A stretch of 64,000 bases of DNA, from positions 93,043-157,042 of the forward strand of contig JABIBU010000013.1 in NCBI GenBank assembly GCA_018652595.1, read 5' to 3'. Numbering within the stretch: position 1 is the stretch's first letter; each line of letters begins with the position of its first letter. The DNA is from Candidatus Magasanikiibacteriota bacterium. GTDB taxonomy: Bacteria; Patescibacteriota; Patescibacteriia; Magasanikbacterales; UBA922. The position numbers were made by a program, and so were the translations under genes. Below, piece after piece: positions 24,753 to 61,760 of this stretch. Below the pieces are notes generated by a model that did no database searches, was not told the origin of the DNA, and saw only the letters and a program-made list of their open reading frames with translations.

Positions 24753-24762
24753 TACATCTTGA

Positions 24763-25689: not shown

Positions 25690-25706
25690 AAAATAATTTA
25701 TTTACT

Positions 25707-26759: not shown

Positions 26760-26775
26760 AGTATTTTATATAAAT

Positions 26776-30208: not shown

Positions 30209-30216
30209 AAACTATT

Positions 30217-31245: not shown

Positions 31246-31251
31246 AACTTT

Positions 31252-32148: not shown

Positions 32149-32153
32149 ATATA

Positions 32154-33089: not shown

Positions 33090-33101
33090 AATATATTTGA
33101 T

Positions 33102-33941: not shown

Positions 33942-33943
33942 AT

Positions 33944-34855: not shown

Positions 34856-34883
34856 TTTATTTAAAGATTAAAATTAAAAATCT

Positions 34884-35894: not shown

Positions 35895-35903
35895 AAATTA
35901 ATA

Positions 35904-37184: not shown

Positions 37185-37231
37185 AAAATTAATATTAAAT
37201 TAAGTTAAATTATTTTTTATTATTTAAGTTT

Positions 37232-38542
37232 TCAAGTTTTATTCATATTTTTTATAAATTCATTAAATTCATTTACTATATAATTCAGCATATCCTTGGA
37301 CAACCCAGGATGAACACCGATCCAAAAAGTATTAGTCATTACAAGATCAGTATTAACAAGATTATCTACAATCCTATATTTAATATTCTTTTCCACAAAA
37401 TAAGGTTGTTTTATAACGTTGCCGGCAAATAGAAGCCGTGTACCAATTTTCTTTTCATTTAAATGTTTTATTAAATCATCCCGTGTAAAACCCGCATCAT
37501 CTTTCACTGTCAAAAGAAAACCAAACCAACTAGACTCAGCCTTATCCGACCAACTAGGAAGAATAAAATAGTCTTCGTGTTTTTTTAATTTCTCATAAAG
37601 ATAGTCAAAATTGTCTCTTCTCTTTTGTATAAAATCCTCCAGTTTATCCAATTGTGCAACACCTAGAGCAGCCTGTATATCGGTCACCTTCAAATTATAA
37701 CCCATCTCAGAATAAATATATTTATGATCATACCCAAGAGGTAAATTGCCAAGCTTCCAAGAAAAACGTCTTTTACATGTATCATCCATACCTGTTCTAC
37801 ACCAGCAATCCCTACCCCAATCACGAATTGATTTAATTATGCGATATAGCAAAGCATCATCTGTAAACACAGCTCCACCCTCCCCCATAGTAATATGGTG
37901 TGCGGGATAAAAACTACATGTAGCCACATGTCCAAATGTACCTGTTTTTTTACCATCATACACAGAACCTAGAGCATCACAATTGTCTTCTACAAACCAA
38001 AGACCATGCTCTTCGCACAACTCGGCTATCTTATCCAACTCGCAAGGATTTCCCAAAGTATGTGCCAAAAAAATTGCTCGTGTTTTTGGGCCAATTGCTT
38101 TTTTTAATTTCTCTATATTTATATTGTATGTACCCAAATCAACATCTACAAAAACAGGAACCAAACCATTTTGAACTATAGGATTCACTGTTGTTGGAAA
38201 TCCTGCCGCAACACTAATAACCTCATCACCTGGTTTCAGTCTCCTATCCTTTAGCTTTGCAGACATCAGGGCAGAAAAAGCAACTAAATTTGCAGATGAA
38301 CCTGAATTAACTATAGCTGTAAACTTTACCCCCAACCACTCACTAAGCCTTTTTTCAAATAAATCTGAAAATCTTCCCTCTGTCCACCACCCGTCCAAAA
38401 CTGCTTCGGTCATATTTAATATTTCCTTCTCATCAAATGTTTTACCAGAGACAGGAATAAAAGATTCTCCTGGTACAAATTCTTTGGGAGAAAATCTTTC
38501 TTTGTATTCTTCTCCCAATAATTTTTTTAAGTTATCATTCAT
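37232..38542 (-). CDS. rfbH: CDP-4-dehydro-6-deoxyglucose 3-dehydrase E1 (RfbH/DdhC; PMP-dependent, DegT family)
   Basis: 436 aa. LKPGDEVISVAAGFPTTVNP, SFYPAHHITMGEGGAVFT and RDWGRDCWC...YDHKY..EMGYNLK are near-identical in pattern to Salmonella RfbH (recalled). Confidence 0.8.
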   Translation of the reverse strand: MNDNLKKLLGEEYKERFSPKEFVPGESFIPVSGKTFDEKEILNMTEAVLDGWWTEGRFSDLFEKRLSEWLGVKFTAIVNSGSSANLVAFSALMSAKLKDRRLKPGDEVISVAAGFPTTVNPIVQNGLVPVFVDVDLGTYNINIEKLKKAIGPKTRAIFLAHTLGNPCELDKIAELCEEHGLWFVEDNCDALGSVYDGKKTGTFGHVATCSFYPAHHITMGEGGAVFTDDALLYRIIKSIRDWGRDCWCRTGMDDTCKRRFSWKLGNLPLGYDHKYIYSEMGYNLKVTDIQAALGVAQLDKLEDFIQKRRDNFDYLYEKLKKHEDYFILPSWSDKAESSWFGFLLTVKDDAGFTRDDLIKHLNEKKIGTRLLFAGNVIKQPYFVEKNIKYRIVDNLVNTDLVMTNTFWIGVHPGLSKDMLNYIVNEFNEFIKNMNKT

Positions 38543-39425
38543 ACAAAAAATCTTTTTTATTTAATTTATTTAAAATAGTTTTATAATATTTTATCAACTC
38601 TAGCAATGATTGGTCTAGTTCAGTATATTCTATATTTTTTAGCTCTGATTTTAATCTTGAGATATCACATGTATACTCTTTATTCAAGTCAGGTTTATTA
38701 ATTTTTATATCTTTTTCCTCATCTAAAACATATAAAATTCTATGAACTATTGACGACAGAGACACTCTCTCCCCCCTGCCTATATTATAAAATTTGTGCT
38801 TTGTCTTTTCATTTTCAATAAAATATCCTAAAATTTTTACAAAATCATTCACATACAAATAGTCGAAATAAGTGTCTTGATTCATTGTTACAGGAAGACC
38901 TAGCAATACTTTGCAGATAATATTTGAAATAAATCTAGTTTTATAATCTTCATATTTCCCATAAACCCCAAACAATCTCAGGTGGGTAATGAAGCTAGCT
39001 TCCTCACAGTATTTTGCACATACATATTTATAAAAACCATATGGATCTTCTGGTACAGATTTATCAAAATCAGATTCTCTTATATTTTTTAATTCTTGTT
39101 GTTTATTATATTCTGCACCAGAACCTAAGAAAATCATCCTCTTGTACATTTTTTTTGCCCTAACTAGATTGAAAAACATTTTTAAATTATCCAATACAAT
39201 ACCTGGATTATCTTTCTCATTTCTAGCAACGCCCACTGCTGCTGCATGAATTACAATATCTACTTTTTCTTTTTTTAAAAAATTATAAACCAAGCTAGTG
39301 TCTAATAAATTTAATTCTTTACTATTTGGTGCCAGTATTTCGTACTTATCTCCCAATAGCTCAACTATATTTCTACCAAAAAAACCACTACCACCGGTTA
39401 AAAGAATTTTAATTTTCTTTTTCAT
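38535..39425 (-). CDS. NAD(P)-dependent sugar epimerase/reductase (SDR)
   Basis: ILLTGGSGFFGRNIV, YxxxK (YKYVCAKY), and 296 aa. Confidence 0.6.
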   Translation of the reverse strand: MKKKIKILLTGGSGFFGRNIVELLGDKYEILAPNSKELNLLDTSLVYNFLKKEKVDIVIHAAAVGVARNEKDNPGIVLDNLKMFFNLVRAKKMYKRMIFLGSGAEYNKQQELKNIRESDFDKSVPEDPYGFYKYVCAKYCEEASFITHLRLFGVYGKYEDYKTRFISNIICKVLLGLPVTMNQDTYFDYLYVNDFVKILGYFIENEKTKHKFYNIGRGERVSLSSIVHRILYVLDEEKDIKINKPDLNKEYTCDISRLKSELKNIEYTELDQSLLELIKYYKTILNKLNKKDFLYE

Positions 39426-40335
39426 ATATTTCCTTTATTATACCGACCACATTAGAGGTGGATAGACCAGACACACCTCTTAAATAATCTTGTCTGCCTA
39501 TTAATTTTGGGTACTCGTCATTAATTCCAATTCTTTTAAAACTGCATTTTTTATCAGATTCAGCAATAACCTCGGACACTGCACTACCCAGACCTCCTAT
39601 GTAGCTGTGTTCTTCAAGGGTGATAATAATTTTTCTATTGGAAATTAAATTCTCTATCAAGTCTACATCCAGTGGTTTTAAGGTGTGAAAACTAATTACT
39701 TCTACGTCAATCTTATCATTTTTAAGCAATTGGGCGGCTTCTAGAGCAATTTCTGTAATAGAACCTGTGGACAATATACTAACTTCTTTACCTTCTCGTA
39801 AAATACGCCCCTTACCAAAACTAATTTCTTTATTTTTTGAACTTAAATTTTCTTCACCACCCCTATTCAATCTAATAAAAAAAGGGCCTTTGTTTTTAAT
39901 AATATATTCTATTAATTTTTCTGCCTCCAAAGGATCTGCTGGAGATATAATTTTCATATTTGGCAAAACACGCATCACTGCTATATCCTCAATAGAATGA
40001 TGTGTGGCACCCAAAGTGCCGTAAGCAAAACCAGCACCAACCCCCACAACCGTTACATCCAAATTTTGATAACAAATATCAACTCGTATTTGTTCCAAAC
40101 AGCGCATAGTCACAAAAGGCATTATTGAATAAATAAAAACTTTTTTACCCTGCAAGGCTAATCCAGCGGCAACACCAACCATATTTTGCTCAGAAATACC
40201 GACATTAAAGACCTGCTCTGGTAATTCATTTTGAAAATCTTCTATAACTGAAAAACCCAAATCTGCCGTTAAAAAAATAATATTTTTATTCTTCCTGGCA
40301 GCCTCATGAATTGTATTTATAACCGTATTTCTCAT
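39409..40335 (-). CDS. Transketolase, C-terminal (pyrimidine-binding + C-terminal domain) subunit
   Basis: About 308 aa matching the C-terminal half of split transketolases (IFLTADLG...GISEQNMVGVAAG...GATHHSIEDIA). Confidence 0.8.
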   Translation of the reverse strand: MRNTVINTIHEAARKNKNIIFLTADLGFSVIEDFQNELPEQVFNVGISEQNMVGVAAGLALQGKKVFIYSIMPFVTMRCLEQIRVDICYQNLDVTVVGVGAGFAYGTLGATHHSIEDIAVMRVLPNMKIISPADPLEAEKLIEYIIKNKGPFFIRLNRGGEENLSSKNKEISFGKGRILREGKEVSILSTGSITEIALEAAQLLKNDKIDVEVISFHTLKPLDVDLIENLISNRKIIITLEEHSYIGGLGSAVSEVIAESDKKCSFKRIGINDEYPKLIGRQDYLRGVSGLSTSNVVGIIKEIYEKEN

Positions 40336-41144
40336 ATTTTTTCTAATTCACTAATTGCCATTTTATACTCTTCTTCATTAGGGCTTTTGTAATGCCACTT
40401 GATCTTATCCTCCATAAAGGATACACCTTTACCTTTCACAGTATTGGCAATTAAGACTGAGGGCTTTTCTCCCTTTTTTTGAGAAAAAGAAGTTAATTGA
40501 GTATCTAGCGCATTTAAATCATGCCCATCAACTTCTTTTACATCCCAACCAAAAGACTCCCATTTTTTAGCCATTTCATTCATATTAATAATATTATCAG
40601 TTTTTCCCAAACCCTGTTGCTTGTTAACATCTACGATTAAAATAATATTTTTAAGTTTAAACTGGCTACAAAACATAGCAGCCTCCCAAACTGAACCCTC
40701 ATTACACTCTCCATCACCCAAAATACAATAAAATTTTCTATTATTATATCTATTTGCCAAGGCCATACCAGCTGTCATGGATAAACCATGCCCCAAAGAA
40801 CCAGCAGTAGCCTCTACTCCAGATAGGCAATCTTTTATTACATGCCCAGCTATTTTTGAACCATTTTCACAAAAACCTTCCAAATTACTTATAGGAAAAA
40901 ACCCCCTCAAAGCCAAGGTGGAATACAGTGCTGCAGCAGCGTGCCCCTTACTCAATACAAAAATATCCCTATCTTCAAAATTTGGTTTTGATGGTTTGAT
41001 ATTCATTACTTGAAAATATAAGACAGTCAGTATGTCAATAATACTAAAACACGAACCAATATGAGAACTCTTCGACTTATAAATCATCTCTAATACCTGT
41101 CGTCTAATCTCCGAAGTCTTAATTTTTAATTCTTTTTTATTCAT
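40332..41144 (-). CDS. Transketolase, N-terminal ThDP-binding subunit
   Basis: GHAAAALYS...GSLGHGLS...LGDGECNEG (ThDP motif GDG-x-N). Start set at MNKKEL to avoid a 58-nt overlap with the upstream gene. Confidence 0.8.
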   Translation of the reverse strand: MNKKELKIKTSEIRRQVLEMIYKSKSSHIGSCFSIIDILTVLYFQVMNIKPSKPNFEDRDIFVLSKGHAAAALYSTLALRGFFPISNLEGFCENGSKIAGHVIKDCLSGVEATAGSLGHGLSMTAGMALANRYNNRKFYCILGDGECNEGSVWEAAMFCSQFKLKNIILIVDVNKQQGLGKTDNIINMNEMAKKWESFGWDVKEVDGHDLNALDTQLTSFSQKKGEKPSVLIANTVKGKGVSFMEDKIKWHYKSPNEEEYKMAISELEKI

Positions 41145-42102
41145 GTCCAAAATATTTTTTATACCAATTATAGGTCTCTTTAATACTATCTTCAAAGCTA
41201 CTCTTTGCTTTCCAATTTAAAACTTTTTCTGCTTTATCATAATTTAAACTTTGAGCTGGAATCTCATTTGTTTGATTATTTACTATTTTATAATCAATTT
41301 TTTCTTCCAAAACCGCCCCCATCTTCTCAATCAAATCTAATACAGAAAAATTATAACCGGAACTAAAATTGAAAGCTTCGCCTTTTGATTTGTCTATTTG
41401 TTCAGCAAGTTGAATATAGCCATCTACCACATCCTTTACATAAACATAATCGCGAACAAAAGTACCATCGCTTCTTAATTCCAAAGTACTCTTATCTAAA
41501 ACAGACTTCACAACCCCTGGTATAATACGATTCATATTCAAATCTCCAGGACCATAGATATTCCCGAACCTACTAACTGTTACGGGTAAATCGTAAGTAT
41601 TGTGATATGCCAAAGAAATCAAATCAGCACAAGACTTTGAAACATCGTATGGATGGTCACCGCCCATAGCATTTTCTTCTGTGGCATCTGTACAATCCTT
41701 GCCATATGCTTTGTCACTAGAAGCAACCACCAATGCCTTAACTCTGGGAGACATTTTGACTGCCTCTAGAATATTTACTGTACCCATTACATTGGTACTA
41801 ATAGCTTCATAAGGATTGATCACTGCGGTTGGCACTATAGCTTGGGCGCCTATATGAAATACATAATCAATTTCATATTTTGTTACTACATTCATAATTC
41901 TTTCTTTATCATTCAAGTCACCGTATGCACAAACAACACTCTCATCCAATTTGTTCATATAAAAATATGAACTAGGGTCCTTACTACGAACCAGACAAAC
42001 TATTTTATAAGGTTTCAATTTCAAAAGCTCTTCCACCAAGTGAGAGCCAACCAAACCAGTCGCTCCTGTTATCAAAATATTTTTTCCTGTTAGATTTGAC
42101 AT
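41137..42102 (-). CDS. CDP-glucose 4,6-dehydratase-like SDR (RfbG/DdhB-like)
   Basis: ILITGATGLVGSHL, STNVMGTVNILEA and SSDKAYG resemble RfbG blocks (STNVMGT, SDKCYDN). Confidence 0.65.
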   Translation of the reverse strand: MSNLTGKNILITGATGLVGSHLVEELLKLKPYKIVCLVRSKDPSSYFYMNKLDESVVCAYGDLNDKERIMNVVTKYEIDYVFHIGAQAIVPTAVINPYEAISTNVMGTVNILEAVKMSPRVKALVVASSDKAYGKDCTDATEENAMGGDHPYDVSKSCADLISLAYHNTYDLPVTVSRFGNIYGPGDLNMNRIIPGVVKSVLDKSTLELRSDGTFVRDYVYVKDVVDGYIQLAEQIDKSKGEAFNFSSGYNFSVLDLIEKMGAVLEEKIDYKIVNNQTNEIPAQSLNYDKAEKVLNWKAKSSFEDSIKETYNWYKKYFGHE

Positions 42103-42117
42103 AAAAAAATTATTATA

Positions 42118-42906
42118 TTAATTCCAAACTTTCCAAAAAGGATTTTTTGCCCAAAGTTCGTTCATCTCCTCGACCTCTTTATAATTGTCCATGCATTTCC
42201 ATCTTCCTGGACTATTATAAACCATGACCTGACCATCTTTGGCGAGTTTTGAGAAAACACTTTCAATCATACTATCATCTTCGATAAAATCAAAGATATC
42301 TCTTCTAAATACCATAAACCCCCCATTAATAAGATCCTTTGCGCCTTCATTTTCATCCTCTGTAGTGACATTGTGTTGTGCAAAGTTAATCACTTTACTA
42401 TCAGCATCAATATTTAAAAAACCAAAACGAGTAGCCGGCTTCACTCCAGTAATGGTCGCCACAAGACCGTGCTCTTTGTGAAATTCAACAAGTTTAGAAA
42501 TATCTATATCAGCAACACCATCACCATAAGTAACCATAAAATGCTCGTCATTGCCTATATATTTTTTCAGACGCTTGATACGCTCACCTGTTAAACTTTT
42601 TAAACCTGTCTCTGCGAGAGTAACATTAAAATCATCGCAATGATTATTATGCATTACCATATCACCTGTCTTGGTGTTTAGGGTAAAATCATTAACAAAG
42701 GTACGCTCATGTAAGAAATAATCTTTTATCAGATCACCCTTATACCCCAAGGCCAATATAAAATCATTGAAACCATAGTGAGCATATATTTTCATAATAT
42801 GCCACAATATTGGCTTGCCACCTACCGATACCAATGGTTTTGGCTTAAACTCTGTCTCCTCCTTCATACGTGTGCCTGTTCCCCCACACAAAATTATTGT
42901 TTTCAT
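42118..42906 (-). CDS. rfbF: Glucose-1-phosphate cytidylyltransferase (RfbF/DdhA)
   Basis: MKTIILCGGTGTRMKEE...KPKPLVSVGGKPILWHIMKIY...TYGDGVADIDI...INGGFMVF parallels Salmonella RfbF throughout (recalled). Confidence 0.8.
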   Translation of the reverse strand: MKTIILCGGTGTRMKEETEFKPKPLVSVGGKPILWHIMKIYAHYGFNDFILALGYKGDLIKDYFLHERTFVNDFTLNTKTGDMVMHNNHCDDFNVTLAETGLKSLTGERIKRLKKYIGNDEHFMVTYGDGVADIDISKLVEFHKEHGLVATITGVKPATRFGFLNIDADSKVINFAQHNVTTEDENEGAKDLINGGFMVFRRDIFDFIEDDSMIESVFSKLAKDGQVMVYNSPGRWKCMDNYKEVEEMNELWAKNPFWKVWN

Positions 42907-42922
42907 ATGTTAAATATTATAT

Positions 42923-43792
42923 TTATTTTTTTAAAATTATATCCCACTGATCTTTGCCTAGAATAATCTGACCCAGTAAGAGACTTTTTATTAGACGGAA
43001 TAGTCTTTTTTTCTCTGACCAGTCAAACTTTTTTATTAAACTAATAATATTTTCATTTCCTGCTCTCACTGCTTTTTTATTTAAAATTTTTAAGCCACTT
43101 TTTTCACAAATATAATCAATTGATCCTGAAGAAAAGAAATTTAAATGACCAAATGGCAATACCATGCCCCATTTACCTTTCATCATCCTGGCTTTCAAAC
43201 AATCTTTATTAGGAAAATTTAAATATATGATTGCATCCTCGTTCGCTACTTTACTTACTTTTTTTATCATAGACTTTGGATCAGCAACGTGCTCTAAAAC
43301 ATCCCCAAAAACTATAATATCAAACCTAACACCCACTGGTAAATCATTTACATCTTGGACAACTTTCAATTTTTCACTTTTTCCCCACCATCCTGGCTCA
43401 ACACCATATGACATATCCGCCCTTTCAGAAAAATACTTCAACAAATTTCCACTTCCACATCCTATTTCTAAATAATTAAACTCGGTTTTATCAATACACC
43501 TAGTCAGTCTTGAGAAAATTTTCTCAGCATAAATATTATCAGGAGATGTCCCACTATAACCAGGTGGATAAACTACAAATCCAGAACCCTCTCCATACCA
43601 CTTCGATAATACTTCTTGTCTTGGCATAGGATCAATCCACCAATGACTACAGATACTACACTCACGTAAACTTACCTTGTCATCGCAATTTTTATTTATA
43701 ATTTGTACATAATTATCAATAATTTTTGATTTACCAGAACAAACTGTACAATCTACTTGGGCTATTAACCAACTATTATCTATCTTGTCCAT
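42923..43792 (-). CDS. Class I SAM-dependent methyltransferase with an N-terminal Cys-rich zinc ribbon
   Basis: CTVCSG...CSICSHWW followed by LEIGCGSGNLL and DIIVFGDVLEH. Confidence 0.65.
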   Translation of the reverse strand: MDKIDNSWLIAQVDCTVCSGKSKIIDNYVQIINKNCDDKVSLRECSICSHWWIDPMPRQEVLSKWYGEGSGFVVYPPGYSGTSPDNIYAEKIFSRLTRCIDKTEFNYLEIGCGSGNLLKYFSERADMSYGVEPGWWGKSEKLKVVQDVNDLPVGVRFDIIVFGDVLEHVADPKSMIKKVSKVANEDAIIYLNFPNKDCLKARMMKGKWGMVLPFGHLNFFSSGSIDYICEKSGLKILNKKAVRAGNENIISLIKKFDWSEKKRLFRLIKSLLLGQIILGKDQWDIILKK

Positions 43793-43842
43793 ATTAATTT
43801 TTTTAAAATAAAAATATATATTTATTTACACAATGTCAATAA

Positions 43843-44685
43843 TTATTTTATATAATCAATTAAGGCTTCTTGCCAATTGCGTAATACTGGCACATTTATT
43901 TCTTTCAATCTTTTGTTTTCCAAAATAGAATTTTGTGGTCTTTTTATTTTTGTCCCACTCTCACTTGTCTTTATTGGAATAGGAGCAGATTCAATCTTAG
44001 AAAATTCTAATATTTTATTTGCAAATTCATACCAGGAACAATGCCCACTATTCGTTATGTGATAAACTCCAGGCTCAGCATCTAATACTATCAATTCATT
44101 TATTTTTTTTGCTAGATCATTTGTATATGTTGGAGAGCCAATCTGATCTTCCACTACTCTAATTTCTTCTTTTTCTCTGGCTTTCAAAATCATTGTCTTT
44201 ACAAAATTTTTCTCACTATTATCTTTATTATTACCAAAGAGCCAGCTCGTACGTATAATTAAATTATTTTCATTTGCCAACTGCACCATATATTCTCCAG
44301 ATAGTTTTGATGCACCATATACATTTAGGGGTCTTGGGCAATCTATTTCGGAAAAACTATTTTGGTCTCCACCAAACACATAGTCAGTACTTATGTGTAC
44401 AATTTTTGCTCCAAAATCATTAGATACTTTTGCAAGAAGATACGGCCCGAAAGCATTAACCCTATAAGCATCCTCTATACATTCTTCTGCTTGTTCCACC
44501 TTATTATATGCGGCACAATTTATCACAATATTAGGATTATATTTACCAAACACTTCTAGTATAGCGTCTTTATTTGTAATATCCAAACCGATCCTATCCA
44601 ATGCAATATAGTCTACTCCCAATCCAGAAAACAGCTGTTGCAATGCATTTCCAAGTTGTCCATTAGACCCAGTAATCAATATCAT
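43843..44685 (-). CDS. rmlD: dTDP-4-dehydrorhamnose reductase
   Basis: MILITGSNGQLG, VINCAAY, HISTDYVFGG and NVYGASKLSGE match the RmlD pattern. Confidence 0.8.
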   Translation of the reverse strand: MILITGSNGQLGNALQQLFSGLGVDYIALDRIGLDITNKDAILEVFGKYNPNIVINCAAYNKVEQAEECIEDAYRVNAFGPYLLAKVSNDFGAKIVHISTDYVFGGDQNSFSEIDCPRPLNVYGASKLSGEYMVQLANENNLIIRTSWLFGNNKDNSEKNFVKTMILKAREKEEIRVVEDQIGSPTYTNDLAKKINELIVLDAEPGVYHITNSGHCSWYEFANKILEFSKIESAPIPIKTSESGTKIKRPQNSILENKRLKEINVPVLRNWQEALIDYIK

Positions 44686-44697
44686 ATTGCAAAAACT

Positions 44698-47007
44698 CTA
44701 ATAATAATCTGCTCTCTGTTGACGATCATAATGTTTAATAAACTCTTCTTTATTTTTTACATCTTTCCACCATGCTTCATTGTTAATATACCACTCTACA
44801 GTATGTTTCATAGCATCTTCGAAATTATGCTGAGACGACCAGCCGAGATTCTGACTTAATTTTGTAGAATCTGGAGCATAACGCAAATCTGCACCAGGAC
44901 GATCATTTGTGTGCTCTACACACTCAGATAGCTCCTTCTCCAATGCCAACATATCTCTAATTGATCCTAAAATTTCAAGATTAGTTTTTGGTGTACCACT
45001 CACATTATATATATGCCCATCCTCTCCTTTGTGTATTACAATATCAATAGCGTTACAAAAATCATTAACATATATCCATGATCGTATATGCATGCCATCA
45101 CCATGGACAGGAATTTTTTTATCTTCAATCAAATTTGAAATTGCAAGTGGAATCAATTTTTCTGGATATTGATATGGACCAAAATTATTTGACCCTCTTA
45201 TAATTAGAGCGGGTAATCCATGACTACGAATATAAGACCTAACAACCAGATCTGCACTAGCTTTAGAGGCGGCATAAGGATTGGATGGATTTGGAGAAGA
45301 CATTTCTGTAGAATGCCCCTCTGGTATATCTCCATAAACCTCATCTGTTGATATCTGCAAAAAACGTGGTATACCGTGTATACGACACTCTTCTACCAAC
45401 ATATGGGTTCCAACAATATTAGTATTTATAAAATCATAAGATGAACACAGTGAACGATCAACATGGGACTCCGCAGCAAAATTTACAACTACATCAAACT
45501 TATTATTGCTAAAAAGATTATCTAGAAAAACCTTATCACAAATATTACCATGAATAAAATTGTATCTTTTATTTTCCTTGGTTTTTCCCAACTCTATTTC
45601 TGTTATGTCTAACAAATTATTTTGATTTCCAGAATAAGTAAGTAAGTCTAGATTAAATAATTCATAATCTTCATACTTATTATAAAGATGGCGTATAAAA
45701 TTTGAGCCGATAAAACCAGAACCACCGCAAATCAATATCTTTTTCCTGTCACCCTTGGGAACACTTTTTAATTTACTATTGCTAGAAATTACTTCACCAC
45801 TTGGCAAGATAAAAGAACCGCCCGCCTCTAAAAAATCTTTCTCTTTTTCAAGAATAACTTCCAGGTAATTCCAGGCTAACAATAAAAAATAATCTGGTAA
45901 ATTTTGATGTGCAGAAACACTATCGATAGTTGGGATGTGCATACCAGGAGTAAATAATCCCTGTTTGGCTTGTAAATCCTCCAAAGCATAGTTTAGTACG
46001 CTATCATCTAAACCACAGTAATTTAGCATGGTATTCCCCTTTGCAGGTGCCCCATAAGCAGCTATTTTTTTACCGGAATTTTTCAAATCAGTCAAGAGTC
46101 CAACTAATTTTTGTTTTTGTGCCTTAACCTTTTGTGCCAACACACTATATGCGCTTATAGAATTCAAGCCCAACTCTAATTCTCTGTCAATCCATTTTTG
46201 TACACTATTACTAACACTATGTTTGCCAGCACGCCCCACAAACAAGCGCAAGGATCTTCCTTGTACTTTGTGAACCTCCACATCAAAAATTTCAAATCCA
46301 TACTGTTCAAAAAGTTTTTTCAATGGGCGAACCGCCAAAAATGATAAATGCTCATGATAAATAGTATCGTATGTCAAATTTTCAAACATATCAATCAAAT
46401 AAGGGGCCTCCATAACAAATACTCCGTCTTCATCGAGTAATTTATCAATACCTTTTACTAGATCGTGGTGATCATCTATATGTGCGACCACATTATTAGC
46501 CATTATTATTTTGGCTTTCCCGTGTTTTTCTGCAATATTTGCACCCACCACTTCTGAAAAGTAATCTACGATTGTTTCTACCCCCACCCTATCTGCAACT
46601 TTCACTACATTTTCAGCTGGGTCTACTCCCAAGGCTCTATAACCCAGATCTTTAAAAAATTTTAATAATATACCATCATTACTTGCTATTTCTACAACAA
46701 AATTTCCAGGTTCCAAAAAACGCTCTACAACATCTTCGGCATATACCTGAAAATGATTTGATAGCTTGGGCATTCCAGAAGAAAAATAAATATAATCAGC
46801 AAACATCTCTTCCTTATTCACAACATCCAAAAGCTGTGCGAGATTACACTCATGACAAAAATATGCAGCAAGTGGATACTTTTTTTCATTTGAAAAATCA
46901 GATTTATTTTTCAAAAAAGAATTGGCAAGGGGCTGATCGCCCAAATCCAAAAATTTTGTTAATTCTTCACTCTTACAAATTCTACATTTTGTATTATGTT
47001 TATGCAT
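44698..47007 (-). CDS. Bifunctional fusion of a sugar C-methyltransferase (N-terminal) and dTDP-glucose 4,6-dehydratase RmlB (C-terminal)
   Basis: N-terminal CRICKS...CHECN zinc ribbon plus a SAM MTase and C-MT C-terminal domain. The C-terminal ~330 aa carry ILICGGSGFIGSNFI, YAASKASAD and DGMHIRSWIYVNDF (RmlB). There is no internal start codon at the junction. Confidence 0.75.
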   Translation of the reverse strand: MHKHNTKCRICKSEELTKFLDLGDQPLANSFLKNKSDFSNEKKYPLAAYFCHECNLAQLLDVVNKEEMFADYIYFSSGMPKLSNHFQVYAEDVVERFLEPGNFVVEIASNDGILLKFFKDLGYRALGVDPAENVVKVADRVGVETIVDYFSEVVGANIAEKHGKAKIIMANNVVAHIDDHHDLVKGIDKLLDEDGVFVMEAPYLIDMFENLTYDTIYHEHLSFLAVRPLKKLFEQYGFEIFDVEVHKVQGRSLRLFVGRAGKHSVSNSVQKWIDRELELGLNSISAYSVLAQKVKAQKQKLVGLLTDLKNSGKKIAAYGAPAKGNTMLNYCGLDDSVLNYALEDLQAKQGLFTPGMHIPTIDSVSAHQNLPDYFLLLAWNYLEVILEKEKDFLEAGGSFILPSGEVISSNSKLKSVPKGDRKKILICGGSGFIGSNFIRHLYNKYEDYELFNLDLLTYSGNQNNLLDITEIELGKTKENKRYNFIHGNICDKVFLDNLFSNNKFDVVVNFAAESHVDRSLCSSYDFINTNIVGTHMLVEECRIHGIPRFLQISTDEVYGDIPEGHSTEMSSPNPSNPYAASKASADLVVRSYIRSHGLPALIIRGSNNFGPYQYPEKLIPLAISNLIEDKKIPVHGDGMHIRSWIYVNDFCNAIDIVIHKGEDGHIYNVSGTPKTNLEILGSIRDMLALEKELSECVEHTNDRPGADLRYAPDSTKLSQNLGWSSQHNFEDAMKHTVEWYINNEAWWKDVKNKEEFIKHYDRQQRADYY

Positions 47008-47013
47008 ATTTCA

Positions 47014-47652
47014 TTAGACTACGTTATAAATAAAATTCTCTGACCTAATATCTTTTGACCAATCCTGCAAAGATAGCCCATGCTTATCTCTATTGCCCAT
47101 TAAATAATCTTTACTTATAAATTCATCGAACTCTTTCTTTAGGTCTTTATCACATAGTGCCCAATCAATTCCTTTTGACAATGGGGAAATGCCTGCCTCA
47201 CCCTCTGGGTTATAATCTCCAGAAAAAAAGTATTCTATTGTACTATCCTCCAAAAAAAAGCTACCGTGTGCAATACCAGGTGGCAACCAAAGCCACTCAC
47301 CATAGTCCGAGCTACCATCAAATGGCATATCATATAGAATGATCTTCCCCTCTGTAGGAGAACCTTTTCTTATGTCTAGCATTATATCTACCATATGACC
47401 GGACACAGTTCTAATCAATTTTCCAAGAGCTGGCTCCCACTGAAAATGAAGCCCCTTAAGCACGCCTGCTTTTGAAAAATTCTCATTAAACTGAACAAAA
47501 TCAACATCTTTTAAAAACCCTAATTCTTTATTTTTTTTAATATCACTTTTTCTTAATATTTCAGAAAAATAACCCCGCTCATCCGCAAATCTTCCAAATC
47601 GGATCACTTGTACACCCGGTAATTCTAATTGTTTTACCTCAATTAATTTCAT
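47014..47652 (-). CDS. rmlC: dTDP-4-dehydrorhamnose 3,5-epimerase-like cupin (RmlC family)
   Basis: FADERGYFSE, KGLHFQ and KLIRTVSGHMVDIMLDIRKGSPTEGK parallel the RmlC blocks. Confidence 0.7.
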   Translation of the reverse strand: MKLIEVKQLELPGVQVIRFGRFADERGYFSEILRKSDIKKNKELGFLKDVDFVQFNENFSKAGVLKGLHFQWEPALGKLIRTVSGHMVDIMLDIRKGSPTEGKIILYDMPFDGSSDYGEWLWLPPGIAHGSFFLEDSTIEYFFSGDYNPEGEAGISPLSKGIDWALCDKDLKKEFDEFISKDYLMGNRDKHGLSLQDWSKDIRSENFIYNVV

Positions 47653-47656
47653 ATGC

Positions 47657-48547
47657 TTATTTGAGCACTCTTTTTATACCCCTGTACAGTTTGCCCGCAG
47701 ACTTTCTTGAATAACTATATGCAACATTGAATGGTAGCAAAAGTGTAAGGAAAAACGAAGGCTTTTCTTTTGTGTTATACGGAGGCTTGTAGATCAAATC
47801 AGAACTATCTAAATTTGATAGTTCATAAAACATTGGTGTCTCCATCCCCTCTTTGACAACCAGGCTTTTTCCATCTTGGCTTTTTGAATATTTTTTATCA
47901 AAAAACTCATTATTAACTGCGGAATATTTTCCAACACCTCCATCTGTTTTTTCTGATATATTTGCCCATCCAGCATTTTCTTGGGGTGCAACATAGTTAA
48001 CTATCCCATGACAGACAAATTCGGGAACATCTTTTCCTTTTGCCAAAATACGATTTATATAATCGCCATCTTCCTGCCCAGTACCCAACAGTCTCTCCTC
48101 AAACCAGCCAACCTCTTTCATAAAACTCTTTGAAATTAAGAAGTGGCTCCAACTCTTATTAATTATAAAAAATGAACTATTGTTTTCTAAAACTTTTTCA
48201 AATTGTTTTCTAAATAATAAATTCAAGCTAACATCATCATTGATAATCAAGGATCTTTTTGCAAAAGACATCATTGCGATCCAATTAAAGCATTTTGCGA
48301 GAGACTGATGCTTCTCATTTGTAATATAATGAACATTGGGAAATTTGTTCAAAAAAGCTGTAACCTGCTTTAGATAATTGATCTGCAACGCCTCGTCATG
48401 ATGGCCATTGATAATACAGATGATTTCTTTGTCAGGAAAAACCTCAACCAACTGATTAATTAGAGGTATAAAAAATTCTTCAAATCTCGCTACATAGGTA
48501 ACAACCCCAATAGAATATTCAAGATTTATCTTTTTTTTATTACTCAT
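47657..48547 (-). CDS. Hypothetical protein, possible divergent glycosyltransferase
   Basis: No recognised motif except a DxD-like LGTGQEDGDY. Its placement inside a glycan operon suggests a glycosyltransferase. Confidence 0.3.
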   Translation of the reverse strand: MSNKKKINLEYSIGVVTYVARFEEFFIPLINQLVEVFPDKEIICIINGHHDEALQINYLKQVTAFLNKFPNVHYITNEKHQSLAKCFNWIAMMSFAKRSLIINDDVSLNLLFRKQFEKVLENNSSFFIINKSWSHFLISKSFMKEVGWFEERLLGTGQEDGDYINRILAKGKDVPEFVCHGIVNYVAPQENAGWANISEKTDGGVGKYSAVNNEFFDKKYSKSQDGKSLVVKEGMETPMFYELSNLDSSDLIYKPPYNTKEKPSFFLTLLLPFNVAYSYSRKSAGKLYRGIKRVLK

Positions 48548-50082
48548 ACTCTAAATTTAATTGCCTTATTAAAAAAAGTTTTGAACAGTTCCAATTCATC
48601 TCTTTCAAAAAATCCAAAAAGTCTAAATAGACCAAAGAATGCGACAATACTAACCCCACCCAAAATAATAACGGAAAATAAATTAGTTATATAAGGAGTC
48701 AAAATTAGTGAGGATAGTAGATATATTATTATAGCAACAAAGACTATTTTAGAAATATTAGTTGTATAAAAATGAATAATCTTTTTTGTCGAAAAACCGA
48801 GCATTTTTCTTTCTACATAGAATAAAATAAATGGGATCGGCAACACGCCGATAAGATATGCAATTGAAGCGCCCACCGCCTTATACGATGGAACCAGCAA
48901 AAACATAGAGACGATATTTAATATCGCCATTGACATGGTACTAATAGCTATAAATTTTAATCTTCTTGTCCCACTTAGATAAAAATGCATAAAAACATTT
49001 ATTGAAAATAAAAAATATGTGACAGTGAGGATATACATTGGGATTGTAGCATTGTCTGCAAACTCTTGTCCCAACCAATACTTTAGCAACCAATAGCCGT
49101 ATACGAAGACTAGTGTGGCCAAAGAAGCAGAGATCAGTAATATAATCTTTATATACCTATGAAAAATATTTTTAATCTTTTCACTGTCCTGCAAAAAGCT
49201 AATATTGGAAAAAACTGGGAATAATGATGTAGACAAACTAAAGCTTGTTGCCTGGATCTTTTCTGGGATCATCTGTGCCGAAGCATAGTATGATACATAC
49301 ACTGGGCCCCAAAAAGCACTCATTACAAATTTATCAAACTGTGTAAGAATATTATTCATTATATTACTTACAGAAACCCAGAAACCATCTTTCATCAAAC
49401 CTTTGAAAATACTTGGTGAAAAAAATAAGACAAACTTTAGATCTGGCAATAATTTCTTCCATATATATACATAGGCCACGAACAAAAACATGGATGATAA
49501 TGCCTGTAGAATAACTAGAGACATTATACCGTACCCAGTGTAAACAGCTACGATACTAGATATTTGTAAAAAAGTTATACTTATCAGGTGCGCCTTGGTC
49601 ATAATTCCAACCCTCTGTAGAGCATAAGGAATTTGAATTAACGGACTAACTATCATCTTAAAAAAGAATGCAAACCCCAAAAACATGAAAGTTACTTTAT
49701 ACGAGTAAACAAAACCATCTGGAATCTTGAGAACCCCCCTAAAGAAATCTGGCAACAACAGTAGTAAAAAAAATACCAAACACCCAATAAATAAATATAA
49801 AATAAATGTAGAACTAAACACCTTGGACAGCTCCTCATTATTTCTTGAGTCTGGATTTTCAGAAAGTTTTTTTACAAAAGTATAATTAAAACCAAAATCC
49901 AATAAAGAAAATAAGGCTAGACTGGCATTTAAGAGGACATAAAATCCATATTTTGAAGGACCCAACCGACTTATCAAAATCGGCATAACAACAAAAGCCA
50001 AAGCCATTGGCCAGATAAAACCAATGAAGCTATAGGCAGAATTTTTTATTGTTCTATTTGCCAATTCACTCATAATTACCAA
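48544..50082 (-). CDS. wzx: Wzx-type oligosaccharide flippase (MOP superfamily polysaccharide biosynthesis protein)
   Basis: 512 aa, about 14 TM, with an N-terminal region typical of Wzx/RfbX. Confidence 0.7.
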   Translation of the reverse strand: MVIMSELANRTIKNSAYSFIGFIWPMALAFVVMPILISRLGPSKYGFYVLLNASLALFSLLDFGFNYTFVKKLSENPDSRNNEELSKVFSSTFILYLFIGCLVFFLLLLLPDFFRGVLKIPDGFVYSYKVTFMFLGFAFFFKMIVSPLIQIPYALQRVGIMTKAHLISITFLQISSIVAVYTGYGIMSLVILQALSSMFLFVAYVYIWKKLLPDLKFVLFFSPSIFKGLMKDGFWVSVSNIMNNILTQFDKFVMSAFWGPVYVSYYASAQMIPEKIQATSFSLSTSLFPVFSNISFLQDSEKIKNIFHRYIKIILLISASLATLVFVYGYWLLKYWLGQEFADNATIPMYILTVTYFLFSINVFMHFYLSGTRRLKFIAISTMSMAILNIVSMFLLVPSYKAVGASIAYLIGVLPIPFILFYVERKMLGFSTKKIIHFYTTNISKIVFVAIIIYLLSSLILTPYITNLFSVIILGGVSIVAFFGLFRLFGFFERDELELFKTFFNKAIKFRV

Positions 50083-50321
50083 TCTTTAGTTTTATCTATA
50101 GTTTTAATTTTTACTTTTTGATATAAATTTGTTGCCTTTTTATCAACCTCTGGAGAGACTATACGCAACAATTCATGCCCTAAAATCCTATATTGTTTGC
50201 CAACTTTATTGGCTCTAAGAAGCCCCTTCTTTAGAAGACGTTTCATGGTGCTATTACTGACTTTTAGCAATTTTTCAGCTTCGGCAGTTGTATACACCTC
50301 ATTTGGGTTGATTTCTCCCAT
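50076..50321 (-). CDS. Small HTH DNA-binding protein (excisionase/MerR-like HTH_17 family), first gene of the wzx operon
   Basis: 81 aa. YTTAEAEKLLKVSNSTMKRLLKKGLL is a helix-turn-helix. Confidence 0.6.
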   Translation of the reverse strand: MGEINPNEVYTTAEAEKLLKVSNSTMKRLLKKGLLRANKVGKQYRILGHELLRIVSPEVDKKATNLYQKVKIKTIDKTKDW

Positions 50322-50349
50322 ATTTTAGCAGAAAATGAATAATAATACA

Positions 50350-50379
50350 AGTATAGCATGTGGTGTCATTGGGTGTCAA
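50350..50379 (-). promoter_or_regulatory. Sigma70 promoter TTGACA-N18-TATACT (minus strand) for the HTH_17-wzx operon. Its -35 is embedded in a triple direct repeat.
   Basis: Minus-strand TTGACA = plus 50374-50379 and TATACT = plus 50350-50355, with an 18-nt spacer. Located about 30 nt upstream of the HTH ATG. Confidence 0.5.
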
Positions 50380-50388
50380 ACGGTGTCA
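50362..50388. repeat. Three tandem 10-bp-phased direct repeats GGTGTCA (minus: TGACACC) overlapping the -35
   Basis: tGGTGTCAttgGGTGTCAaacGGTGTCAtcc. Confidence 0.7.
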
Positions 50389-50450
50389 TCCTAAGTTATC
50401 CACAAAATATCACTTTTGTCAAGCTTTTTCACCTTTTTACGCATAAAATC

Positions 50451-50477
50451 AAAAAATCACCTAATTGGTGATTTTTA
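50451..50477. terminator. Rho-independent terminator downstream of fcl
   Basis: AAAATCACCtaattGGTGATTTTt. Confidence 0.55.
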
Positions 50478-61211: not shown

Positions 61212-61760
61212 TTAGTCTTGTTCCAAAAGCTCTTGAAGTTTTTTAGTTGCACGATGCAAGGTCACTCTTACATTAGTTTTTGATTTGTCTAGTATTGAAG
61301 ATATTTCTGAAGTTGTCAGCTCTTCTACAAAACGCAGTAGTATCACTTCCTGATATTCCTGCTTCATTCTTTTTACAACTATCATTATTTTTTCCACCTC
61401 AATATCTATTTCAACTTTTTCATAATTTTTATCATCAGCCAGCAAGACTACTGAATCAAGTGAACACTCTTGCCTTTTTGCTCTCTGGCGATAAAAATCA
61501 ATTATTGAATTTCGAGCTATTCTATAAATTAATCCTGTAAAGCTTCCTATTTCTTTTTTTCTATTTTCAATTAAATAGTTCCAAACTTTCAAAAAAACAT
61601 CACTCGTAATATCTTCGGTCTCTTCCTTATTATTAATTTTAAAGAAAACAAACCGATAAATTTTTTCTACATACAAATTATAAAGCTCACCAAAAGCAGC
61701 AGAATCTTTCTTTGTTCTAATCTTAAATAGTAATGCTTTTTCTTCCATTTTTAGCTTCAT
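61212..61760 (-). CDS. ECF-type RNA polymerase sigma-70 factor (sigma-24 family)
   Basis: Region 2 (FGELYNLYVEKIYRFV...DVFLKVW) and a region 4 HTH (LTTSEISSILDKSKTNVRVTLHRATKKL). 182 aa. Confidence 0.85.
   Translation of the reverse strand: MKLKMEEKALLFKIRTKKDSAAFGELYNLYVEKIYRFVFFKINNKEETEDITSDVFLKVWNYLIENRKKEIGSFTGLIYRIARNSIIDFYRQRAKRQECSLDSVVLLADDKNYEKVEIDIEVEKIMIVVKRMKQEYQEVILLRFVEELTTSEISSILDKSKTNVRVTLHRATKKLQELLEQD

What the first reader, a model, noticed from the sequence alone, without database searches (positions are those of the whole stretch)
50341..50400. HTH_17 mini-regulator operon promoter with three helically phased TGACACC repeats covering the -35
Upstream of the HTH_17-wzx operon, a canonical TTGACA-N18-TATACT promoter is overlapped by three exact GGTGTCA/TGACACC direct repeats at 10-bp spacing (50362, 50372, 50382). 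The middle repeat contains the -35 hexamer itself. This looks like an operator for cooperative binding of a repressor or activator on one DNA face. The adjacent 81-aa HTH protein is a plausible autoregulator. A second HTH_17 paralogue (62370..62699) sits beside a different repeat set.
Basis: seen in the sequence. Interest (0 to 1): 0.55.

Follow-up and report, generated by a model that had tools for sequence, protein, structure and literature searches.

The report
Conserved repeat operator of glycan-operon regulator
Three TGACACC words, one per DNA turn, lie over the promoter of a small DNA-binding protein that heads a surface-sugar gene cluster in a Candidatus Magasanikbacteria genome; the same protein and repeat array recur across many candidate-phyla-radiation bacteria, so this is very probably a conserved self-regulating switch of a known type, not yet tested by experiment.

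Summary
GGTGTCA (TGACACC on the coding strand) sits at 50362, 50372 and 50382. The middle copy holds the -35 of TTGACA-N18-TGcTATACT. This is the only exact 7-mer triple at steps 7-15 in the window (0.0015 expected).

The 81-aa HTH_17 protein is conserved at 64-88% identity in the 80 best of 362 species genomes of Patescibacteria. In 71 of 81 loci the same array is present: TTGACACC is invariant, and TGACACC recurs in the spacer and 10 bp upstream. Copy number ranges from 2 to 6. Successive copies are 10 bp apart in 79 of 87 pairs.

The gene almost always heads a glycan export and synthesis operon. Its predicted fold matches BldC best. BldC is a small MerR-like winged-helix protein that binds direct repeats head-to-tail, one protomer per turn.

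My best reading is that the protein oligomerises on the array and occludes its own strong sigma-70 promoter, autorepressing the glycan operon. Binding and the sign of regulation are inferred.

The protein fails NCBI's BldC-family model and carries an extra C-terminal helix, so I file it as a new member of a known kind. Interest is moderate, because no regulator-operator pair was found described for this lineage in five full-text searches.

The parts
50382..50388 (-). Repeat 1 (promoter-distal unit, TGACACC; 10-bp unit TGACACCGTT), centred near -45
   Evidence: Exact match. The equivalent upstream unit is conserved at 55-90% per position in 71 related loci.
50372..50379 (-). Repeat 2, TTGACACC. 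It contains the -35 hexamer TTGACA (50379..50374).
   Evidence: All eight positions are at least 90% conserved in 71 loci, including the CC that the sigma-70 consensus does not require.
50362..50368 (-). Repeat 3 (TGACACC), inside the 18-nt promoter spacer
   Evidence: The spacer unit is conserved as T.85 G.83 A.94 C.70 A.79 C.89 C.68 in 71 loci.
50350..50358 (-). Extended -10, TGcTATACT
   Evidence: Promoter scan gives 11/12 with TG. A TG extension is present in 55 of 71 related promoters, and spacers are 17 nt (27 loci) or 18 nt (42 loci).
50396..50404 (-). Perfect DnaA-box 9-mer (TTATCCACA on +, TGTGGATAA on the coding strand), starting 16 nt upstream of repeat 1. Possible second regulatory input; function unknown.
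   Evidence: 6 exact boxes in the window against 0.9 expected; the box (up to 1 mismatch) lies upstream of unit 1 in 22 of 81 loci, 13-16 nt upstream in 19 of them, against 0.006 expected per locus.
50076..50321 (-). Gene for the 81-aa HTH_17 / excisionase-family winged-helix protein, the candidate autoregulator
   Evidence: Pfam HTH_17 scores 41.6 bits against a cut-off of 27. TIGR01764 scores 36.7 against 28.8. The AF2 model has pLDDT 90 and its best PDB match is BldC. 851 close homologues; relatives in 362 species genomes.
48544..50082 (-). Wzx-type flippase gene, overlapping the HTH gene by 7 nt (same operon)
   Evidence: In related loci the downstream gene is Wzx-type in 30 of 68, ABC-2 (Wzm) in 11 and a sugar-nucleotide enzyme in 13.
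17508..48547 (-). Remainder of the co-oriented, tightly packed glycan biosynthesis cluster. I infer, but have not shown, that this promoter drives at least part of it.
   Evidence: ORF map. Pfam content is epimerases, glycosyltransferases, methyltransferases and aminotransferases.
50452..50476 (-). Hairpin plus T-run terminator ending the upstream gmd-fcl unit. It isolates the HTH promoter as the start of a new transcription unit.
   Evidence: Terminator scan finds a 10-bp stem and T-run.

Best explanation
The three TGACACC words form a direct-repeat operator for the 81-aa winged-helix protein encoded immediately downstream.

Proposed mechanism:
- One protomer binds each 10-bp unit, head-to-tail, so all protomers sit on one face of the helix. 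This is how BldC, lambda Xis and RdfS bind.
- The units cover roughly -48 to -18 of a near-consensus sigma-70 promoter with an extended -10. The middle unit is the -35 hexamer and the proximal unit fills the spacer.
- A filled array should therefore exclude sigma region 4 and RNA polymerase.
- The protein would then autorepress its own transcript. That transcript continues into the flippase gene and the variable glycan-synthesis genes, so output of a long surface-polysaccharide operon is held at a set level.

Shown here: the repeat geometry; its conservation with the protein across Patescibacteria; the promoter overlap; the fold; and the operon-leader position.

Inferred: that this protein is the binder, that binding is cooperative, and that the effect is repression.
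For: Geometry and chance.

Orthologues: there are 851 proteins, the 120 listed at 74-100% identity, and relatives in 362 species-level genomes of Magasanik-, Wolfe-, Buchanan-, Doudna-, Komeili- and Falkowbacteria and Paceibacter.

Array conservation:
- Within 200 nt upstream, TGACACC (up to 1 mismatch) occurs at 10.1 per kb against 0.72 per kb elsewhere.
- Spacing is 10 bp in 79 of 87 successive pairs.
- The longest 10-bp-phased run of units is 0 in 5 loci, 1 in 19, 2 in 38, 3 in 18 and 6 in 1.
- All 12 further phased pairs in about 0.9 Mb of flanks (both strands counted) lie on the same strand, upstream of the HTH gene. They sit either after a long leader or in front of sugar-nucleotide genes that precede the HTH gene in the same operon.
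- The position-specific footprint extends beyond the sigma hexamers.
- Other promoters in the window lack the motif.
- Homologues of only 48-63% identity keep the exact array and a glycan gene downstream.

Protein:
- The recognition helix and wing are nearly invariant.
- The AF2 model is confident.
- The best PDB match is the BldC-DNA complexes 6AMA and 6AMK (rmsd 1.3-1.8 A over 50-51 alignment columns, target TM 0.72-0.83). The RdfS excisionase, a MerR-family protein and RacA follow.

Precedents from the literature:
- BldC binds variable numbers of direct repeats head-to-tail (PMC5859096).
- BldC spaces protomers one DNA turn apart, and RdfS represses its own promoter across -35 and -10 (PMC11963761).
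- D29 Gp36 represses through direct repeats (PMC12266134).

The promoter is near-consensus (11/12 with TG), so it should not need an activator.
Against: - There are no binding or expression data.
- I found no covariation between protein residues and operator variants. Loci with TGACCC units carry no distinctive change in the helix or wing. The link between protein and site therefore rests on co-conservation and adjacency alone.
- The pattern is not diagnostic on its own. Of 120 metagenome hits to TGACACC-N3-TGACACC-N3-TGACA, only 17 have the gene downstream. Most of the rest look like perfect 10-mer tandem repeats in unrelated, mostly GC-richer DNA.
- One CPR-like contig (L090) has the array but no -10 and no HTH gene.
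- The 18-nt spacer in 42 of 71 loci, and the protein's MerR/BldC ancestry, leave activation by DNA distortion open.
- An adjacent, conserved DnaA-box-like element shows that at least one other factor may act here.
Confidence: 0.55

Rival explanations
1. The same protein binds the same array, but as an activator or a dual regulator. Oligomerisation bends or untwists the slightly over-long spacer, in the manner of MerR or BldC, or the distal unit recruits RNA polymerase. The glycan operon would then be switched on.
For: The fold belongs to the MerR/BldC lineage. BldC distorts DNA and regulates both positively and negatively (PMC5859096, PMC6428758). The spacer is 18 nt, one more than optimal, in 42 of 71 loci. 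One unit lies upstream of the -35, where class I and class II activators bind.
Against: The promoter already matches 11 of 12 consensus positions with a TG extension, and 27 of 71 loci have an optimal 17-nt spacer. The best-conserved units are the -35 itself and the spacer, positions where a bound protein normally occludes polymerase. MerR-type activation uses 19-20-nt spacers and palindromes.
Confidence: 0.2
2. The array is a real operator, but a different trans-acting factor binds it. The HTH gene would simply be the first gene of the regulated operon.
For: There is no covariation between protein and site. A second conserved element, the DnaA-box 9-mer, sits beside the array. An orphan array exists without the gene (L090).
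Against: Array and gene co-occur in essentially all 81 loci and in homologues down to 48% identity. Where the array lies further upstream, it still heads the operon that contains the gene. A contig with two gene copies has an array in front of each (L021 and L066). The protein's fold is the one known to read phased direct repeats.
Confidence: 0.12
3. No dedicated protein is involved. The phased -35-like words would be an intrinsic promoter feature, for example extra docking sites for sigma region 4 or the alpha subunit, or DNA curvature that tunes promoter strength.
For: Each unit resembles a -35 hexamer (TTGACA or ATGACA). The 10-bp phasing is compatible with curvature.
Against: The other strong promoters in the window lack the words. 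The CC extension and the spacer copy have no known role in sigma-70 contacts, yet they are 68-99% conserved. Only one copy is correctly spaced from the -10.
Confidence: 0.06
4. The protein is a recombination directionality factor (excisionase). The array would be its arm-type site at the edge of an exchangeable glycan cassette.
For: The domain family is named for excisionases (TIGR01764). RdfS is the second-best structural match. The cluster downstream is hypervariable (Wzx median 31% identity) while the upstream gmd and fcl genes are conserved.
Against: None of the window ORFs scanned individually matched an integrase or recombinase, and none appeared in the truncated family summary of the remaining glycan-cluster ORFs. 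Gene order wzy-gmd-fcl-HTH-transporter is chromosomal and conserved. The array always overlaps a promoter in a fixed register. None of 120 viral contigs carrying the motif pair encodes the protein.
Confidence: 0.03

Closest known systems
BldC (Streptomyces; PDB 6AMA, 6AMK; PMC5859096)
   Same: It is a small single-domain MerR-like winged-helix protein of the HTH_17/TIGR01764 group and the best structural match. It binds direct repeats head-to-tail, in variable numbers, about one protomer per turn. Here the DNA side of that pattern is seen as 2-6 units at 10 bp.
   Different: The window protein does not match NCBI's BldC-family model. It is only 24% identical to BldC over the aligned core, and the profile alignment is weak. 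It has an extra conserved, lysine-rich C-terminal helix (residues 57-79) ending in an invariant Trp. BldC's unit is AT-rich (AATTnnnnC) with about 9-bp register, and BldC is a pleiotropic regulator encoded away from its targets. Here the unit is TGACACC, includes the -35 hexamer, and the arrays found so far are confined to the protein's own glycan locus.
RdfS and other wHTH recombination directionality factors that double as repressors (RdfS PDB 8DGL, PMC11963761; lambda Xis, P2 Cox and 186 Apl from general knowledge)
   Same: They share the HTH_17-type fold and oligomerise along DNA. RdfS binds across the -35 and -10 of its own promoter and autorepresses. Xis and Cox use phased direct repeats.
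   Different: Those proteins belong to mobile elements and work with an integrase. Here no integrase was found in the window ORFs scanned, the context is a conserved chromosomal glycan locus, and the operator has a sharp consensus, unlike RdfS.
Mycobacteriophage D29 Gp36 (PMC12266134)
   Same: It is a MerR-like small protein that represses transcription by binding GC-containing direct repeats.
   Different: It is a phage protein. Its repeats are spaced 15-19 nt apart rather than a strict 10 bp, and it is not an operon-leader autoregulator.
Classical MerR-family regulators
   Same: They have a related winged-helix DNA-binding domain, and their operator lies within the promoter spacer.
   Different: MerR proteins dimerise through a long coiled coil, carry an effector domain, bind palindromes and act on 19-20-nt spacers. 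None of these holds here.
MamR (magnetosome island protein, NCBIfam NF040990)
   Same: It is the best-scoring named NCBIfam model for the wHTH core (46.3 bits).
   Different: The score is far below the family cut-off of 100 bits, the genomic context differs, and I know of no DNA target for MamR.

Membership tests
Pfam HTH_17 (PF12728) / TIGR01764 excisionase-family DNA-binding domain | Score above the curated cut-off of the family model | tested here: met
   HTH_17 scores 41.6 bits against 27. TIGR01764 scores 36.7 against 28.8.
Pfam HTH_17 (PF12728) / TIGR01764 excisionase-family DNA-binding domain | Winged-helix core: strand, two helices, beta-hairpin wing, helix | tested here: met
   The AF2 model (pLDDT 90.4) gives E9-11, H12-19, H23-32, E37-40, E43-47, H48-55. 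It superposes on BldC, RdfS and MerR-family cores.
BldC family | Sequence membership (NCBIfam NF033787 HTH_BldC, cut-off 77 bits) | tested here: not met
   There is no hit at E<=0.01, whereas BldC itself scores 107.9. hhalign aligns only 30 columns at 22% probability.
BldC family | Structural match of the wHTH to BldC | tested here: met
   Top Foldseek hits are 6AMA and 6AMK, with rmsd 1.3-1.8 A over 50-51 alignment columns and target TM 0.72-0.83.
BldC family | Single wHTH domain with no further dimerisation or effector domain | tested here: inconclusive
   The 81-aa protein has no effector domain, but it has a conserved extra helix at 57-79 of unknown role.
BldC family | Head-to-tail cooperative binding to direct repeats of variable number | not testable with these tools
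   Only the DNA side is visible: 2-6 direct units at a strict 10-bp step, all in one orientation.
Classical MerR regulators | C-terminal coiled-coil dimerisation helix plus effector-binding domain | tested here: not met
   The protein is only 81 aa. The MerR_1 Pfam score is 17.3, below the cut-off of 21.6. Structural matches cover only the wHTH.
Classical MerR regulators | Palindromic operator inside a 19-20-nt spacer | tested here: not met
   The repeats are direct and the spacers are 16-18 nt.
Excisionase / recombination directionality factor | Encoded in a mobile element next to a cognate integrase and att sites | tested here: not met
   The context wzy-gmd-fcl-HTH-transporter is conserved. 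None of the window ORFs scanned individually matched an integrase. The remaining glycan-cluster ORFs were seen only through a family summary truncated at 25 of 60 families, which lists none. None of 120 viral contigs carrying the motif pair has the gene.
MamR (NF040990) | Score above the equivalog cut-off (100 bits) | tested here: not met
   The score is 46.3 bits.
Negatively autoregulated operon-leader repressor (functional class) | Operator overlapping the core promoter of the regulator's own transcription unit | tested here: met
   The units cover the -35 and the spacer. The gene overlaps or abuts the next gene.
Negatively autoregulated operon-leader repressor (functional class) | Protein binds the operator and lowers transcription | not testable with these tools
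   This needs EMSA or footprinting and a transcription assay.
DnaA box (adjacent element) | Match to the 9-mer TTATCCACA | tested here: met
   An exact match lies at 50396-50404. The box is conserved in 22 of 81 loci. DnaA binding itself was not testable.

The most novel reading that the evidence does not exclude
The array may be more than a simple autorepressor site. Each operator word is itself a -35-like TTGACA or ATGACA. The winged-helix filament and sigma-70 region 4 would then compete for the same sequence, giving a conserved Patescibacteria-wide master switch for surface-glycan expression, which plausibly matters for attachment to host cells. In Magasanikbacteria the adjacent perfect DnaA box would tie that switch to replication or cell-cycle status. 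The conserved lysine-rich C-terminal helix would be a new oligomerisation or polymerase-contact element absent from BldC and Xis.
Probability: 0.12. Interest if true: 0.75.

Novelty: new member of a known kind. Interest (0 to 1): 0.55.

Why it matters
Five full-text searches found no described transcription factor-operator pair for candidate-phyla-radiation bacteria. These organisms have tiny genomes and few regulators, and they depend on cell-surface contact with hosts.

This site offers three things:
- a short, sharply defined DNA word (TGACACC at 10-bp steps);
- an 81-residue protein that can be made synthetically;
- a clear target, the head of the hypervariable surface-polysaccharide cluster.

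All three are conserved across several classes, so the hypothesis can be tested directly in vitro without cultivating the organism. Confirmation would give a first regulon anchor for these bacteria and a second well-defined example of the BldC-style mode of direct-repeat recognition, this time with a crisp consensus sequence. If the hypothesis is wrong, the array is still a strongly conserved cis-element that needs an explanation.

Tried and rejected
- A sequence search of the PDB with the family profile gave only noise. The link to BldC came from fold comparison alone.
- I looked for covariation between operator variants (TGACCC against TGACACC) and residues of the recognition helix or wing, and found none.
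- The metagenome scan for the triple word was meant to reveal a wider regulon. It mostly returned what look like unrelated perfect 10-mer tandem repeats in mostly GC-richer DNA. No distant HTH_17 gene lies downstream of those. The pattern alone is therefore not a usable marker.
- The viral scan gave 120 motif pairs and none with the gene.
- Two simulation scripts for the chance estimate timed out. An analytic estimate plus 3000 shuffles replaced them.
- Rfam found only two tRNAs in the window, so no known RNA element explains the region.
- I considered a second promoter at the upstream TTGACA (50420..50415) and rejected it, because its putative -10 is poor and overlaps the DnaA-like box.
- I considered that repeat 3 is conserved only as the arm of a hairpin around the -10, as seen in many related loci. 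The window and several other loci keep the unit without any inverted partner, so that cannot be the whole reason.
- The excisionase reading is unlikely, because no recombinase was found and the chromosomal context is conserved.

Full report
**What is in the sequence.**
On the minus (coding) strand the region reads TGTGGATAAC-ttagga-TGACACCgtt-TGACACCcaa-TGACACCaca-TGcTATACT, then 28 nt, then ATG. The three TGACACC words are exact and start 10 bp apart; on the + strand they are GGTGTCA at 50382, 50372 and 50362.

The promoter scan finds TTGACA (50379..50374), an 18-nt spacer and TATACT (50355..50350). This matches 11 of 12 consensus positions and has a TG extension. The middle word therefore contains the -35, the proximal word lies in the spacer, and the distal word is centred near -45.

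A hairpin plus T-run terminator (50476..50452) closes the upstream gmd-fcl unit, so this promoter starts a new transcript.

The heptamer occurs only four more times in 64 kb, always singly. No other exact 7-mer is repeated three times at any fixed step from 7 to 15 nt. The expectation is 0.0015 per window, and 3 of 3000 shuffles showed one.

**The gene behind it.**
The ORF 50321..50076 encodes 81 aa. It matches Pfam HTH_17 (41.6 bits against a cut-off of 27) and TIGR01764, the excisionase-family DNA-binding domain (36.7 against 28.8). It overlaps a Wzx-type flippase gene by 7 nt. About 33 kb of co-oriented sugar-nucleotide, glycosyltransferase and methyltransferase genes follow. Upstream lie wzy-like, gmd, an unassigned ORF and fcl. 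An identical protein is annotated from Candidatus Magasanikbacteria.

**Comparative test.**

The protein has 851 database homologues; the 120 listed are 74-100% identical. Relatives occur in 362 species-level genomes spanning Magasanik-, Wolfe-, Buchanan-, Doudna-, Komeili- and Falkowbacteria and Paceibacter. The best 80 are 64-88% identical. This is at least as conserved as the neighbouring enzymes Gmd (median 75%) and Fcl (70%), while the downstream Wzx has a median of only 31%.

Upstream of these genes the word recurs:
- TGACACC (up to 1 mismatch) occurs at 10.1 per kb in the 200 nt upstream, against 0.72 per kb elsewhere.
- 79 of 87 successive copies are exactly 10 bp apart.
- The longest 10-bp-phased run of units is 0 in 5 loci, 1 in 19, 2 in 38, 3 in 18 and 6 in 1.

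I aligned 71 loci on the -35:
- TTGACACC is essentially invariant, at least 0.90 at all eight positions.
- The spacer copy reads T.85 G.83 A.94 C.70 A.79 C.89 C.68.
- The upstream copy reads T.90 G.80 A.82 C.55 A.69 C.65 C.66.
- Spacers are 17 nt (27 loci) or 18 nt (42 loci), and 55 of 71 promoters have the TG extension.

Promoter spacers are not normally conserved in sequence, so this footprint indicates a site read by something other than sigma. The ten loci left out of the alignment are accounted for. They carry degenerate or variant units (TGACCC), or an array further upstream at the head of the operon.

In the roughly 0.9 Mb of flanking sequence (both strands counted), all 12 additional phased pairs are on the same strand and upstream of the HTH gene; none is antisense or downstream. 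Four of them head sugar-nucleotide genes that precede the HTH gene in the same operon: L036, L051, L054 and L086. A contig with two copies of the gene has an array before each: L021 and L066. Homologues of only 48-63% identity, found through the metagenome scan, still carry exact arrays 53-99 nt upstream. The ten whose downstream gene was scanned nearly all lead into glycan genes.

The gene immediately downstream of the HTH gene, across 68 loci, is a Wzx-type flippase in 30, an ABC-2 (Wzm) permease in 11 and a sugar-nucleotide enzyme in 13. The other strong promoters in the window lack both the CC extension and the phased copies.

**The protein.**
The alignment shows that the putative recognition helix (SNSTMKRLLK) and the wing (ANKxGKQYRIxG) are nearly invariant. 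This fits an invariant target.

AlphaFold2 gives a confident model (pLDDT 90.4). It has a strand, two helices, a beta-hairpin wing and a helix, followed by an extra long helix at 57-79.

Foldseek against the PDB ranks the BldC-DNA complexes 6AMA and 6AMK first (rmsd 1.3-1.8 A over 50-51 alignment columns, target TM 0.72-0.83, 24% identity). The RdfS excisionase, the MerR-family protein HiNmlR and RacA follow. Sequence-only searches miss this link. The protein does not reach NCBI's BldC-family model, and its best named hit (MamR) is far below cut-off.

The literature supplies precedents:
- BldC is a 68-residue MerR-like protein that binds variable numbers of direct repeats as head-to-tail multimers and distorts DNA (PMC5859096).
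- The RdfS paper groups BldC, RdfS and Pukovnik Xis as HTH_17 proteins, notes one DNA turn between bound BldC molecules, and shows that RdfS binds across the -35 and -10 of its own promoter, consistent with autorepression (PMC11963761).
- D29 Gp36 is a further repressor that acts through direct repeats (PMC12266134).

**Most likely mechanism.**
I propose that protomers of the 81-aa protein bind one per 10-bp unit, head-to-tail and on one face of the helix, covering roughly -48 to -18. The promoter is close to consensus and should fire without help. Occupancy of the -35 and the spacer should therefore exclude polymerase, giving negative autoregulation of a transcript that continues into the glycan export and synthesis genes.

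The geometry, conservation, fold and operon position are shown. Binding by this protein, cooperativity and the sign of regulation are inferred.

I put about 0.9 on the array being a functional protein-binding element, about 0.75 on this protein being the binder, and 0.55 on the full autorepression statement.

The main rival (0.2) is that the same protein activates or has a dual role through MerR/BldC-like distortion. The 18-nt spacers and the upstream unit allow this. Smaller rivals are another factor as the binder (0.12), an intrinsic promoter feature (0.06) and an excisionase arm site (0.03). No recombinase was found among the window ORFs scanned: individually, and as a truncated summary.

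**Limits.**
I found no covariation between protein and operator variants.

The triple word is not specific on its own. Of 120 metagenome hits, only 17 have the gene downstream, and most of the others look like perfect tandem 10-mers in unrelated, mostly GC-richer DNA. One CPR-like contig (L090) has a DnaA-like box and five units but no -10 and no gene.

A genome-wide regulon could not be assessed, because only flanks were available.

**Comparison and novelty.**
In operation this looks like BldC, Xis or RdfS on phased direct repeats, combined with the ordinary logic of an operon-leader autorepressor. As for membership, the protein belongs to the HTH_17/TIGR01764 domain family but not to the BldC family by sequence. 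It is not a classical MerR: it has no coiled coil or effector domain, its repeats are direct, and its spacers are 16-18 nt. It is not an excisionase by context.

The distinctive points are:
- a conserved extra C-terminal helix;
- an operator word that embeds the -35 hexamer;
- conservation across many Patescibacteria lineages at the boundary between conserved and hypervariable glycan genes.

Five literature searches found nothing on this protein or motif. I classify it as a new member of a known kind, with moderate interest (0.55). The mechanism is conventional, but the pair is sharply defined, widespread in a poorly understood lineage and directly testable in vitro.

**The second HTH gene.**
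The ORF at 62370-62699 belongs to a different family. It has no significant similarity to the 81-aa protein and scores 26.2 on HTH_17, just under the cut-off of 27. It is itself widespread, with 1701 homologues, and its context is conserved: an ECF sigma factor and a DUF5667 protein encoded divergently, and a large CLIPPER-domain protein downstream. Its repeats are roughly 20-bp elements of the form TGTATA-N8-TATACA. One lies directly after a TTGACA-N17-TAAAAT promoter, and that arrangement is conserved in clear form in one (L330) of the three related loci examined, and as a half-site in the other two.

Noticed in passing
window 50396-50404 (also 33-41, 5245-5253, 14195-14203, 14948-14956, 63351-63359): A perfect DnaA-box 9-mer (TTATCCACA; TGTGGATAA on the coding strand) starts 16 nt upstream of repeat 1. 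The window holds 6 exact boxes against 0.9 expected. The box (up to 1 mismatch) lies upstream of the first unit in 22 of 81 related loci, 13-16 nt upstream in 19 of them, against 0.006 expected per locus. These are mainly the closest relatives (listed first). It also lies ahead of the extra arrays in L036 and L051 and the orphan array in L090. This may be a second regulatory input; I do not know its function.
   Followed up: partly
related loci, e.g. L008, L010, L031, L035, L041, L059 (unit-based arms) and L043, L048, L052, L053, L056, L068, L079 (other arms): In many related loci an inverted repeat of 9-17 bp brackets the -10 box. The arms are either the spacer unit AATGACACCy with rGGTGTCATT just downstream, or unrelated arms that differ between species yet stay complementary. 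A-runs and T-runs often flank them, as in a bidirectional terminator. The window's promoter has no such partner. The meaning is unresolved: a terminator for the upstream operon overlapping the promoter, or an extra inverted binding site.
   Followed up: partly
L016, L018, L021, L023, L025, L028, L037, L045, L047, L060, L081 (between promoter and ATG): Some orthologous loci have 100-700-nt leaders between the array promoter and the start codon. The leaders are filled with odd short tandem or dispersed repeats, for example CAACTACAA runs in L028, GACTTT-type words in L018 and L021, and TATTAGTATA words in L037, L045 and L047. The window's leader is only about 22-28 nt.
   Followed up: no
window 62370-62699 with 62048-62252: A second HTH_17-like gene (109 aa) belongs to a separate, widespread family of 1701 homologues. 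It has three copies of a roughly 20-bp TGTATA-N8-TATACA element. One sits right after a TTGACA-N17-TAAAAT promoter (62190-62218). That promoter-proximal palindrome is conserved in L330 and as a half-site in L327 and L329. So is the synteny: ECF sigma and DUF5667 encoded divergently, and a CLIPPER-domain protein downstream.
   Followed up: partly
window 61761-61798 (minus strand, just upstream of the sigma gene 61760..61212); L327, L329, L330: A conserved GTGTAACAC...CACGTCTTCT motif lies directly upstream of the ECF-type sigma factor gene. It resembles an ECF promoter (-35 GTAAC, -10 CGTCT) and suggests the sigma factor is autoregulated. The operon continues into a DUF5667 protein and a 1266-aa protein with no Pfam match (55655-59455).
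   Followed up: no
proteins P0250, P0277, P0291, P0300: Distant relatives of the 81-aa protein consist of 4-6 tandem HTH_17 domains in one chain. These would amount to covalently linked head-to-tail arrays, presumably reading runs of direct repeats.
   Followed up: no
L090 4290-4365 (minus strand): An orphan array in a low-GC contig has TGTGGATAAC followed by five 10-bp units, but no -10 box and no HTH gene. What follows looks like the 3' end of a convergent gene. It may be a relic or a rearranged promoter.
   Followed up: no
L021 and L066 (same contig DYFM01000009.1): Two copies of the HTH gene lie about 4.6 kb apart in one glycan locus. Each has its own TGACACC array promoter.
   Followed up: partly
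window 44698-47007 and 22605-24752 (minus strand): The glycan cluster contains two fusion enzymes. One joins a C-methyltransferase to an NAD-dependent sugar 4,6-dehydratase or epimerase (769 aa). The other joins an acyltransferase_3 domain to an epimerase (715 aa).
   Followed up: no
whole window: Strand composition is strongly skewed (C 0.212 against G 0.135 on the + strand, GC 0.347), and nearly all genes lie on the minus strand.
   Followed up: no
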